DNA of 64,000 nucleotides from Octopus sinensis (taxonomy: Eukaryota): positions 78,678,001-78,742,000 of the forward strand of contig NC_043001.1 in the NCBI RefSeq assembly GCF_006345805.1. The letters run 5' to 3'. Positions 1 to 1,735 of the stretch are shown here, one piece after another. Made by a program: the position numbers and the translations under genes. The notes below the pieces were generated by a model that was not told where the DNA came from, did not search any database, and worked only from the letters and a program-made list of their open reading frames with translations. Within the stretch, counting starts at the first letter, position 1, and the number at the start of each line of letters is the position of its first letter.

Positions 1-78
1 GTAGAACATTTTTTATACCAAGACAAATCTTGTACATGATAACACCTCTAATCAGTTAAGATTAGAAACGAGAGCCAA
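1..78 (-). mobile_element. 5' part of the ~555-bp AAT-embedded element (diverged copy, runs off window start)
   Basis: Reverse complement TGGCTCTCGTTTCTAATCTTAACTGATTAGAGGTGTTATCATGTACAAGATTTGTCTTGGTATAAAAAATGTTCTAC aligns to the head of the copy at 43637 (TGGCTCTCATGGCTTCTGATCTTAACTGATAGGAAGTGTTATCATGTACATTGTTTTGTCTTGGTATAAAAGATGGGCTAC). Confidence 0.85.
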
Positions 79-81
79 ATC

Positions 82-117
82 TCTTCTTCTTCTTCTTCTC
101 TTCTTCTTCTTCTTCTT

Positions 118-179
<62 letters not shown>

Positions 180-195
180 TACTATTATTATTATT
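82..195. repeat. Compound microsatellite (CTT)n then (ATT)n/(ACT)n
   Basis: Directly visible; produces the poly-N/K/R ORF 52..300. Confidence 0.95.
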
Positions 196-532
196 GAGTG
201 AGAGAGCAGTGCATGCCATCAAAGTGATACTGGGGTAAAATATACGAAGCCCAGTATACCCATCATGACCACCCGTCTGATAAGGGTACACTAGGCACAT
301 GCATCACAACCATATGTGCGCGACATGGTGATCTCATATCAAGATAAACAGCACATGACCTTGCAGGTGGGGCACAGTTAGAATTTTCTTTTGGTCGAGT
401 AGCCTATCCCGCTCAAAAGGTCCCTGAATAAGGGTCGTTTAAGGATGTTGAATGAAACACCCCTGTTTCCAAAGGTGAATTATTCAAACCCCAAAGAATC
501 CCTCTCAACACATGGCTATGATGCTCCCCCAC

Positions 533-533
<1 letters not shown>
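196..533 (-). mobile_element. 5'-truncated copy (~340 bp, 3' part) of the ~555-bp AAT-embedded element
   Basis: Reverse complement matches ~43855-44191 from AGTGGGGGAGCATCAT to CTCTCACTC; both ends abut (AAT)n on the element strand. Confidence 0.93.
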
Positions 534-566
<33 letters not shown>

Positions 567-575
567 TACTACTAT

Positions 576-655
<80 letters not shown>

Positions 656-705
656 TTATTATTGTTATTATTATTATTATATTATTATTATTATTATCAT
701 CATCA
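534..705. repeat. Compound (ATT)n/(ACT)n/(ACC)n microsatellite
   Basis: Directly visible; source of the poly-I/T/L/Y ORFs 445..813 and 512..1198. Confidence 0.95.
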
Positions 706-1584
706 TTTTCTCTTTATCACAGGTTTTGTTGGTGCTCCTGGAGTCTTGCAGCGGAGCGGGCTTACTTCCTGCAGCCTATGGTACTATGCTGTTCGTTCTT
801 TTCAGTTACCTAATACTTTCCTGATTATTCTGACCGTGCCAAGGAGGCAAATCTTTTGTAACAGTCCTAGTAGGCACTATATTCCAATTTACTTTATATT
901 CCTGTGGATGCCTTCTGATACTGTTCCCAATAACCCCAAAATAATTGACACTATATTTTCCTTCTTCATTTTCCTTGAAGACGATCGTATCTATCTTTCC
1001 TTTCGCCCTCCTTCTGGATTATTCGTGGGTCAAAGGGACATGCACCATCAACTACATAGCATATGTGGTGCACCTTGTCCACCACCACCAATAGGCGCAG
1101 TCTGTTATGCTCTAGCACCTTATCTCCAACTCTGCCGGTCTCTAGGTTCTGTGCTCATGGTACATCTTGTCTCTCTCGAGCCCCCACTTTTCGCATAGTT
1201 TCCCATGTAGCTCTTTCACTGCCTGTTCGTGTCGCCACAACTTGTAGTGGTTTGGGGCATGTCTAGGGCATTCGTTCATGATATGATATGGGCAATGGTT
1301 TCATCCACTCTGTTGCAGATGCAGCACAGTGGATACATTTGCTCATTCTTCAGGTTGACCATCCAGCTCGTGGTCAGAGCTTGTTCCTAACCTGCTAGTA
1401 TAGCGCTCTCGGTCTTTTATTATTATTTTTTTTTTGTGTTCTTTTCATCATCCAATCCCATCTATTTTTTCCAGCGACTTCTGTTGAGGCTACTTGGAAT
1501 TGATTGTGCAGTCCCGTCTTGCGTAATTCTTCTTCGCGTCCTTTTTGCACTTCCTCCTTTGTTTTTCCCTTTTTCTCTGCTCTC
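706..1584 (-). mobile_element. Decayed 3' end of an R4/Dong-like non-LTR retrotransposon (CCHC knuckle + restriction-like endonuclease + ~95-nt 3' UTR)
   Basis: Minus-strand translation across frameshifts and stops: LHNQF..NRWDWM..KTESAILAG*EQALTTSW..PLCCICNRVDETIAHII..ECP..HYKLWRHEQ..LHGKLCEKWG..HNR..LVVVDK..CYVVDGACPFD..KEGERKDRY..IILGLLGTV..LLQKICLLGTVRIIRKVLGN* (stop 802-804). These match the CxxC-ET-H-C knuckle, RHD, RPD..D..P.D..KxxKY and QKxxLLGTxRIxRKVL motifs of R4-clade ORFs. The 3' end runs straight into (TAA)n on the sense strand. Confidence 0.88.
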
Positions 1585-1642
<58 letters not shown>

Positions 1643-1650
1643 TAATAATA
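1585..1650 (+). repeat. (AAT)n microsatellite
   Basis: Directly visible. Confidence 0.95.
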
Positions 1651-1735
1651 ACACCAGGACTTACAAATATATATAACTTACAGAAAATTGCACTACTTGG
1701 CACTGCACACATCCTACGCAAAACACTTTCAATAC
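1651..1735 (+). mobile_element. Short C-terminal fragment of a second R4/Dong-like family
   Basis: Encodes TPGLTNIYNLQKIALLGTAHILRKTLSI, the same terminal motif (QKxxLLGTxxIxRKxL) as the 706-1584 fragment but with a different DNA sequence; begins immediately after (AAT)n on its sense strand. Confidence 0.75.

What the first reader, a model, noticed from the sequence alone, without database searches (positions are those of the whole stretch)
1..1735. Train of co-oriented TAA-microsatellite-targeting retroelements: Dong-like LINE plus a putative non-autonomous partner
Seen: on the minus strand the order is R4/Dong-like 3' end (1584->706), (TAA/TAG)n, 5'-truncated 555-bp element (533->196), (TAA)n(GAA)n, then the head of another 555-bp copy (78->1). 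On the plus strand a second Dong-like C-terminus starts right after (AAT)n at 1651. In each case the TAA strand is the element's sense strand at the junction described; the one exception is the upstream break of the 706-1584 fragment, which abuts an oppositely oriented tract. Established: R4-clade Dong elements use a restriction-like endonuclease and insert into TAA repeats by target-primed reverse transcription. Inference: AAT microsatellites act here as a landing pad repeatedly hit by at least two Dong-like families and a passenger element.
Basis: partly seen in the sequence, partly recalled or inferred. Interest (0 to 1): 0.72.

Follow-up and report, generated by a model that had tools for sequence, protein, structure and literature searches.

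The report
Dong retrotransposons with orphan non-coding passenger
A run of TAA repeats in this animal genome holds decayed pieces of two protein-coding jumping genes of a known TAA-seeking type (Dong) stacked with two copies of a 557-base non-coding element that occurs over 11,000 times and likely borrows the Dong enzyme, although it shares no detectable sequence with the Dong families sampled.

Summary
Observation confirmed, with corrections. 706-1584 (minus) is an old, frameshifted Dong-type 3' fragment. 1651-1735 (plus) is a second Dong family but has lost its 3' UTR and tail. The copy at 77->1 starts 24 nt into the short element and abuts (GAA)n. TAA targeting holds genome-wide: 10,262 of 11,863 short-element 3' ends run straight into ATAAT, and 27 of 30 sampled copies have sense TAA upstream, against about 1% background. 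Two young Dong families with intact ORFs show the R4/Dong domain layout. Dong in TAA repeats is published for molluscs, and Dong-R4 is abundant in octopus annotations, so that part is ordinary. The less ordinary part is the 557-bp passenger. It has the junction habits of Dong (fixed 3' end, 5' truncations, short 5' duplications). It has no tRNA or Rfam head, no canonical ribozyme found, and no detectable homology to 205 Dong 3' UTRs or two full-length families. The partner is inferred, not shown, and an unsampled Dong family could share its ends. The scan reported this element before on other DNA (e1-10333100).

The parts
1..77 (-). Older copy of the 557-bp non-coding element, from element position 25; continues left of the window to about position 534, then (TAA)n
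   Evidence: 87% identity over 511 columns, with L031
82..195 (-). (TAA)n then (GAA)n tract on the elements' sense strand
195..533 (-). 5'-truncated copy of the 557-bp element, positions 219-557, TAA on both sides; youngest insertion of the train
   Evidence: 94.4% to a young copy
534..705 (-). Compound tract TGA/TAA/TAG/TGG/TAA, the shared target tract
706..1584 (-). Dong family A 3' fragment: end of thumb/linker, CCHC knuckle, restriction-like endonuclease, short 3' UTR; decayed
   Evidence: 73-83% to other long copies; tblastn E 1.3e-29 to P0121; 81% to the family majority
1585..1651 (+). (AAT)22.7 tract; sense for family B, antisense for family A; family A joins it at a 4-nt TATT microhomology
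1651..1735 (+). Dong family B C-terminal 85 bp, 5'-truncated after TAA, 3' UTR and tail missing
   Evidence: 91-93% to other copies
1748..1925 (+). Decayed remnant of an abundant SINE-like repeat with an (ATT)n tail; head missing; tRNA-SINE label is recalled
   Evidence: 69-73% to other copies

Best explanation
This is a TAA tract holding successive same-direction insertions of Dong-type retrotransposons and of a 557-bp non-coding element that is likely copied and inserted by Dong proteins acting in trans. Shown: three families sit in (TAA)n with TAA on their sense strand genome-wide; the short element has a fixed 3' end, variable 5' truncations and short 5' duplications; intact Dong ORFs of similar youth exist in the genome. 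From established R2/R4 biology: the Dong protein nicks the (TTA)n strand and primes reverse transcription from the nick. Inferred: each insertion leaves TAA on both sides, so the site stays a target and elements stack, oldest (family A) to youngest (195-533 copy) here. Also inferred, and the weakest step: lacking a shared tail, the passenger RNA is likely recognised through UAA repeats at its 3' end, gained by read-through, perhaps helped by a short motif or fold. How it is transcribed with a fixed 5' end is not established.
For: 3' 26-mer 11,863 exact hits, 5' 26-mer 5,604; 10,262 of 11,863 followed by ATAAT; 3,002 of 5,604 heads directly preceded by ATAATA. In 30 copies in chromosome order, 13 are 5'-truncated at positions 53-404, and 11 of these 13 have sense TAA upstream, which needs a pre-existing tract or a target duplication. 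Short 5' duplications in 7 of 29 distinct head-anchored insertions and in 3 of 25 Dong D 5' ends. 205 of 221 Dong C-termini in the fetched loci are followed first by a sense tract, 5 by antisense. Apart from the passenger, the recurrent element 3' ends upstream of 503 sense tracts are mostly Dong 3' ends. Young Dong C and D copies are mostly 97-99% alike, with intact 1235- and 1313-aa frames; young passenger copies are 98-100% alike. Dong targets (TAA)n in insects, molluscs and cnidarians (PMC7998251, passages; PMC3812793, passages).
Against: No sequence link between passenger and any Dong: profile search of 286 loci (995 kb) and of 205 3' UTRs found only the element itself. Its last 20 nt are pyrimidine-rich (35% purine), whereas the correctly cut representatives of the largest Dong groups are 55-85% purine; one smaller group is 20% and the family B representative was mis-cut. 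Only about 12-19 Dong groups were sampled, whereas 51 Dong-R4 families are reported in O. vulgaris. Known partners of this enzyme class share 3' sequence, sometimes only short segments (PMC3414825; PMC2996970), which argues against recognition by UAA alone. Family A has a sense tract upstream in only 15 of 30 copies, and the window copy abuts an antisense tract. No empty allele, no transcript end and no biochemical test was seen.
Confidence: 0.6

Rival explanations
1. The 557-bp element is a SIDE-like derivative or stringent partner of a Dong family that was not sampled or is extinct; its ends come from that family's UTRs and are recognised specifically.
For: R2 SIDEs are about 530 bp, keep diverged LINE ends and an unrelated middle; in some hybrid SIDEs identity is limited to short segments (PMC3414825). 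Dong 3' UTRs here are unrelated between many families and only part of the family set was seen. A weak local match to the family F 3' UTR reached 4 of 200 shuffles.
Against: That match is one of 13 comparisons and is not significant; the profile search missed it. No contig branch point into foreign sequence among the 24 best-supported loose-end rows for the last 220 nt, 1,393 rows not shown. 27 of 30 head-anchored copies run to the normal 3' end. Family F copies differ from one another by 15-30% while the passenger has near-identical copies.
Confidence: 0.25
2. The short element is mobilised by a different LINE (Tx1-type, RTE, CR1 or Hero) that also favours TAA repeats.
For: Other clades target microsatellites (PMC4640811; PMC3812793) and are recently active in O. 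vulgaris. Two non-Dong RT fragments occur in the loci.
Against: No non-Dong coding element was recognised among the recurrent 3' ends upstream of sense TAA tracts. Of the two RT fragments, one is followed by an antisense tract and the other by a family A piece that owns the tract. The other common repeats at these tracts carry ATT on their sense strand. Only 40 of 96 non-Dong frames were scanned and the loci were picked by Dong or passenger queries.
Confidence: 0.08
3. There is no targeting: elements bring their own TAA tails, and stacking reflects tail expansion, local duplication or survival in repeat-rich DNA.
For: A 3' TAA run alone cannot separate tail from target. Local tandem duplications exist (three near-identical copies at 43.6-52.8 kb; L108/L133).
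Against: Sense TAA upstream of copies truncated at many different points (11 of 13 passenger, 20 of 27 Dong C alignment starts) and the 27:1 strand bias cannot come from tails. The three families in the train differ in age and sequence.
Confidence: 0.04

Closest known systems
Dong elements of the R4 clade (Bombyx Dong, DongAg, DongBg, ostracod Dong1/2; 'Dong-R4' of octopus annotations)
   Same: Single ORF with RT, CCHC knuckle and PD-(D/E)xK-type endonuclease, N-terminal Myb/SANT-like domain without zinc fingers, insertion in (TAA)n (PMC7998251, PMC3812793, passages). Dong-R4 covers 92.7 Mb in 51 families in O. vulgaris, with 5 recently active families (PMC13282606).
   Different: Nothing essential for the coding elements. 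The window holds only decayed 3' pieces. The HDV-like ribozyme shown for Bombyx Dong (PMC3774820, passages and section 15) was not recovered by my strict descriptor in families C or D.
[quoted passage not shown]
   Same: Short (about 530 bp) non-coding passengers of site-specific LINEs, same target and junction variation as the LINE, interspersed with it in tandem arrays, not Pol III type.
   Different: SIDEs keep a recognisable 5' ribozyme and LINE-derived 3' end and are confined to rDNA; the 557-bp element shows neither and has over 11,000 dispersed copies.
EhSINE1/EhLINE1 of Entamoeba histolytica (PMC2996970, passages)
   Same: 500-600 bp non-coding element without a clear tRNA head; its placement with an R4-related, restriction-like-endonuclease LINE is recalled, not read.
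   Different: EhSINE1 shares about 70 bp of 3' end with its LINE and lacks targeted insertion (PMC1635306, search listing only); the 557-bp element is TAA-targeted and shares no detected tail.
Mollusc tRNA-derived SINEs (PMC11481361, PMC4758252, passages)
   Same: Non-autonomous, abundant, rely on LINE enzymes.
   Different: They have tRNA heads and mostly LINE-derived tails; the word Dong does not occur in either main text.

Membership tests
R4/Dong clade (coding families A, B, C, D) | Single ORF with non-LTR reverse transcriptase | tested here: met
   Intact frames of 1235 aa (C) and 1313 aa (D); Pfam RVT_1 E 4e-29 for C and E 3.8e-5 for a family A piece; all 5 PDB sequence hits are R2 proteins or RT-like chains. 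No full-length B copy was examined.
R4/Dong clade (coding families A, B, C, D) | C-terminal CCHC knuckle and restriction-like endonuclease motif | tested here: met
   Both motifs in C and D and in the family A majority frame; the window fragment aligns to these regions.
R4/Dong clade (coding families A, B, C, D) | No N-terminal zinc finger | tested here: met
   No C-x2-4-C in the first 480 aa of C and D, or the first 400 aa of P0121, the closest full-length relative of family A at 63%.
R4/Dong clade (coding families A, B, C, D) | Diverged N-terminal Myb/SANT-like domain | tested here: inconclusive
   Confident four-helix model (mean pLDDT 83.6); matches include Sap1 Z 6.7 (rmsd 7.6, 87 aligned), Zeste Z 5.6 (3.0, 67), R2 residues 149-215 Z 5.2 (3.7, 67), ISWI and TRF domains, all under Z 8 and mixed with unrelated folds; Foldseek had no hit at E 0.001. 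The same domain is found in D and P0121 (E 2e-32, 2e-6).
R4/Dong clade (coding families A, B, C, D) | Insertion in (TAA)n in fixed orientation | tested here: met
   A: sense tract downstream 29 of 30, upstream 15 of 30, antisense 0. B: downstream 24 of 30 (6 ends not matched), upstream 17 sense, 1 antisense, 12 none, 6 of them running past the fetched DNA. D: 22 of 25 5' ends.
R4/Dong clade (coding families A, B, C, D) | RT phylogeny groups with labelled R4/Dong references | not testable with these tools
   Protein searches returned no hit labelled Dong, R4 or NeSL; no Repbase or Dfam.
R4/Dong clade (coding families A, B, C, D) | HDV-like ribozyme at the 5' end | tested here: inconclusive
   Strict descriptor found none in C or D 5' regions and had no positive control; Rfam none. 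A conserved 5' motif with 117 genomic hits looks partly HDV-like by eye.
SINE (557-bp element) | Head derived from tRNA, 5S or 7SL with Pol III A/B boxes | tested here: not met
   No Rfam match up to E 10, no ARAGORN gene; only partial box-like words by eye. A highly decayed head cannot be excluded.
SINE (557-bp element) | Non-coding, dispersed, retroposed (fixed 3' end, 5' truncations) | tested here: met
   Stops in all six frames and no convincing protein match.
SINE (557-bp element) | Tail shared with a partner LINE | tested here: inconclusive
   None among 205 Dong 3' UTRs in 19 groups or two full-length families; the family set is incomplete.
SIDE (557-bp element) | 5' ribozyme and 3' end derived from the LINE | tested here: inconclusive
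   No homology to sampled Dong 5' or 3' ends; strict HDV descriptor 0 hits, loose descriptor 40 sense against 63 antisense.
SIDE (557-bp element) | Same target site and junction variation as the LINE | tested here: met

The most novel reading that the evidence does not exclude
The 557-bp element is a microsatellite-targeted retroelement with neither a Pol III head nor a LINE-derived tail, carried by Dong proteins that recognise only UAA repeats at the RNA 3' end. That would make an R2-group enzyme a relaxed-recognition machine able to insert any UAA-tailed RNA into TAA repeats, and would explain how one passenger outlived several Dong families.
Probability: 0.25. Interest if true: 0.7.

Novelty: new variant of a known kind. 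Interest (0 to 1): 0.4.

Why it matters
The Dong part is known biology and explains why TAA tracts in this genome collect trains of elements. The passenger raises a testable question: site-specific LINEs of the R2 group are described as recognising their own 3' ends (PMC3414825), yet a very abundant, long-lived RNA appears to use Dong machinery without a shared tail. Young intact Dong ORFs and near-identical passenger copies lie in the same genome, so the pairing can be tested directly. If recognition rests on UAA repeats, it bears on how such enzymes choose templates and on their use for inserting RNA-encoded sequence at repeat sites.

Tried and rejected
Rfam and ARAGORN on the passenger: nothing in the element; the microRNA hits lie on flanking simple repeats. 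HDV descriptor: strict 0, loose version unspecific. Hammerhead-like reading of the head: rejected by eye, core incomplete. Whole-element fold z -2.43, but only 6 of 118 consensus pairs had a compensatory change in 30 copies, and 3' ends of the passenger and three Dong families folded no better than shuffles; no structure is claimed. Reverse orientation of the passenger: rejected because truncations remove the ATGCCC end. Coding origin: rejected. Link to family E/F 3' UTR and to Dong 5' motif: not significant. Sequencing-run search: no RNA holder listed; contigs cannot show transcript ends. Foldseek on the N-terminal model: no match at E 0.001. First attempt to call family A 5' junctions was confounded by other repeats and was redone; there L179 and L181 are unreliable. 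In one search, L099 and L105 carry internal deletions and were dropped from the truncation count (15 to 13). Three papers were not held (PMC4400214, PMC4795812, PMC309301). Ten literature searches listed no paper describing this element; subscription journals, Repbase, Dfam and the repeat library deposited with PMC13282606 were not searchable and may already hold it as an unclassified SINE or unknown repeat.

Full report
Setting. The window is G000:C5:78678001-78742000 in a 2.72-Gb genome.

Observation. On the minus strand the order is Dong-like 3' end (1584->706), a TGA/TAA/TAG/TAA tract, the short element from position 219 to its end (533->195, 94.4% to a young copy), (TAA)n(GAA)n, and a second copy that begins at element position 25 and continues left of the window to about position 534 at 87%. 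On the plus strand an 85-bp Dong C-terminus follows (AAT)22.7. It lacks its family's 3' UTR and tail and runs into a headless SINE-like remnant. One deletion could explain both losses; this is inference. The family A piece joins the antisense tract at a TATT microhomology. Antisense junctions occur at 1 of 30 in two samples, so this exception is uncommon but not unique; its cause is unresolved.

The coding families. Family A is old: other long copies are 73-83% identical to the window copy, which is 81% identical to the family majority; 164 copies keep an exact 3' 26-mer. Family B has 6,783 exact hits to a 29-mer. Two further families have intact frames: C, 1235 aa, and D, 1313 aa, 47% identical to each other. 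C matches Pfam RVT_1 and, in PDB, only R2 or RT-like chains. C, D and the family A majority carry the CCHC knuckle and endonuclease motif. C, D and P0121 (63% to family A; E 1.3e-29 to the window) have no N-terminal zinc finger and share an N-terminal domain. Its model is a confident four-helix fold whose matches include several Myb/SANT-type domains and the R2 N-terminal region, but all at Z under 8. This layout is the one described for R4/Dong (PMC7998251, passages). A tree against labelled references could not be built.

Targeting. In 286 loci, 205 of 221 Dong C-termini are followed first by a sense tract and 5 by an antisense one; they fall into 12 groups of two or more and 7 singletons. 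These loci were chosen by Dong or passenger queries, so the counts are not genome proportions. In samples taken in chromosome order, family A has a sense tract downstream in 29 of 30 and upstream in 15 of 30, none antisense; family B 24 of 30 downstream and 17 sense, 1 antisense, 12 none upstream. 20 of 27 Dong C alignment starts and 22 of 25 Dong D heads follow sense TAA.

The 557-bp element. It has stops in all six frames. Its 3' 26-mer occurs 11,863 times and its 5' 26-mer 5,604 times. 10,262 of the 3' ends run straight into ATAAT and 3,002 of the heads directly follow ATAATA. In 30 copies in chromosome order, 27 have sense TAA upstream, 1 antisense and 2 neither, against about 1% background; 13 are 5'-truncated at scattered points and 11 of those follow sense TAA. 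27 of 30 head-anchored copies reach the normal 3' end, and 7 of 29 distinct insertions carry a duplicated 5' piece, as do 3 of 25 Dong D heads. The 68 distinct near-full copies in hand span 78-100% identity, so the family has been active from about the age of family A until recently. It is therefore a retroposed, TAA-targeted, non-autonomous element.

Search for the partner. A profile of the element found nothing but itself in 968-995 kb of loci that include full-length C and D, and nothing in 205 Dong 3' UTRs up to E 10. The best of 13 pairwise 3' comparisons reached 4 of 200 shuffles and is not significant. Contigs of four runs showed no branch into foreign sequence among the 24 listed loose-end rows, with 1,393 not shown. 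No tRNA, Rfam or strict HDV match was found, and no conserved fold. Against a firm negative: O. vulgaris has 51 Dong-R4 families (PMC13282606 supplement row), and hybrid SIDEs can share only short segments with their LINE (PMC3414825).

Mechanism. Shown: target, orientation, truncation pattern, co-existence with young intact Dong frames. From established R2/R4 biology: nicking of the (TTA)n strand and target-primed reverse transcription. Inferred: each insertion leaves TAA on both sides, so tracts are hit repeatedly, here in the order A, older passenger copy, younger passenger copy. Inferred and weakest: Dong protein acts in trans on the passenger RNA through UAA repeats at its 3' end. I put Dong as driver at about 0.85 and tail-free recognition at 0.6, with an unsampled sharing family at 0.25.

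Comparison with print. TAA targeting by Dong is reported for silkworm, mosquito and a snail (PMC3812793, passages) and for most insects, molluscs and cnidarians. Dong-R4 is among the most abundant repeat families in coleoid cephalopods (PMC8967140, passages) and recently active in O. vulgaris (PMC13282606, parts 1-2 of 3). Bombyx Dong has a self-cleaving ribozyme (PMC3774820, passages and section 15). R2 SIDEs and EhSINE1 (PMC2996970, passages) are the nearest passengers, and both share ends with their LINE. Two mollusc SINE papers do not mention Dong in their main text. Ten searches listed no description of this element, but Repbase, Dfam and subscription papers were out of reach. An earlier, unreviewed note of this scan (e1-10333100) reached the same reading on other DNA of this genome; it is not independent support.

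Verdict. The Dong insertions are new members of a known kind. The passenger works like a SIDE or SINE of Dong, but it fails the SINE head test and shows no LINE-derived ends so far, so I class the whole as a new variant of a known kind, interest 0.4.

Noticed in passing
window 33534-57140: About 24 kb of TAA/CAA/GAC repeats, all on one strand, holding three near-identical 557-bp copies spaced 4.0-4.7 kb apart (43637, 48291, 52277) in duplicated blocks, then two old copies (57160, 57709). Could be a real macrosatellite grown from a landing pad or an assembly expansion.
   Followed up: partly
L027:2330-2770: Positions 111-271 of the 557-bp element sit inside a repeat with inverted-repeat flanks; the same junctions recur in tens of contigs of three runs, suggesting a DNA-type element carrying a captured fragment.
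   Followed up: partly
L214-L238 around position 1500: Full-length Dong D heads start at a fixed motif but often carry short purine-rich extras, and 6 of 25 have a (GAA)n run just upstream, like the GAA run at window 82-147. The motif is shared with a Dong C relative in L023 and looks partly HDV-like.
   Followed up: partly
window 1748-1925 and many loci: An abundant SINE-like repeat is flanked by (ATT)n on its own sense strand at head and tail (59 and 47 of 503 tracts), that is, it lies in TAA tracts in the opposite direction to Dong and may supply new targets.
   Followed up: partly
L017 near 3490; L129 near 2197: A tRNA-headed repeat with a hammerhead-like motif contains an internal TAA run that is used as a landing site; earlier notes such as e1-9829870 read this kind of repeat as a Penelope terminal repeat.
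   Followed up: no
L011:600-660: Chimera in which the passenger's 3' end joins directly to a Dong B 3' UTR.
   Followed up: no
window 30057-32866: Tandem duplication of about 1.4 kb at 98% identity.
   Followed up: no
L237:1794-3041: 416-aa open frame with RING and B-box matches next to a Dong D 5' end; L054 also holds a 426-aa frame that looks like a host exon.
   Followed up: no
coded runs X17 and X19: Contigs of two other coded organisms cover 26 of 30 bins of the passenger stretch, so the element is probably older than the host species.
   Followed up: partly
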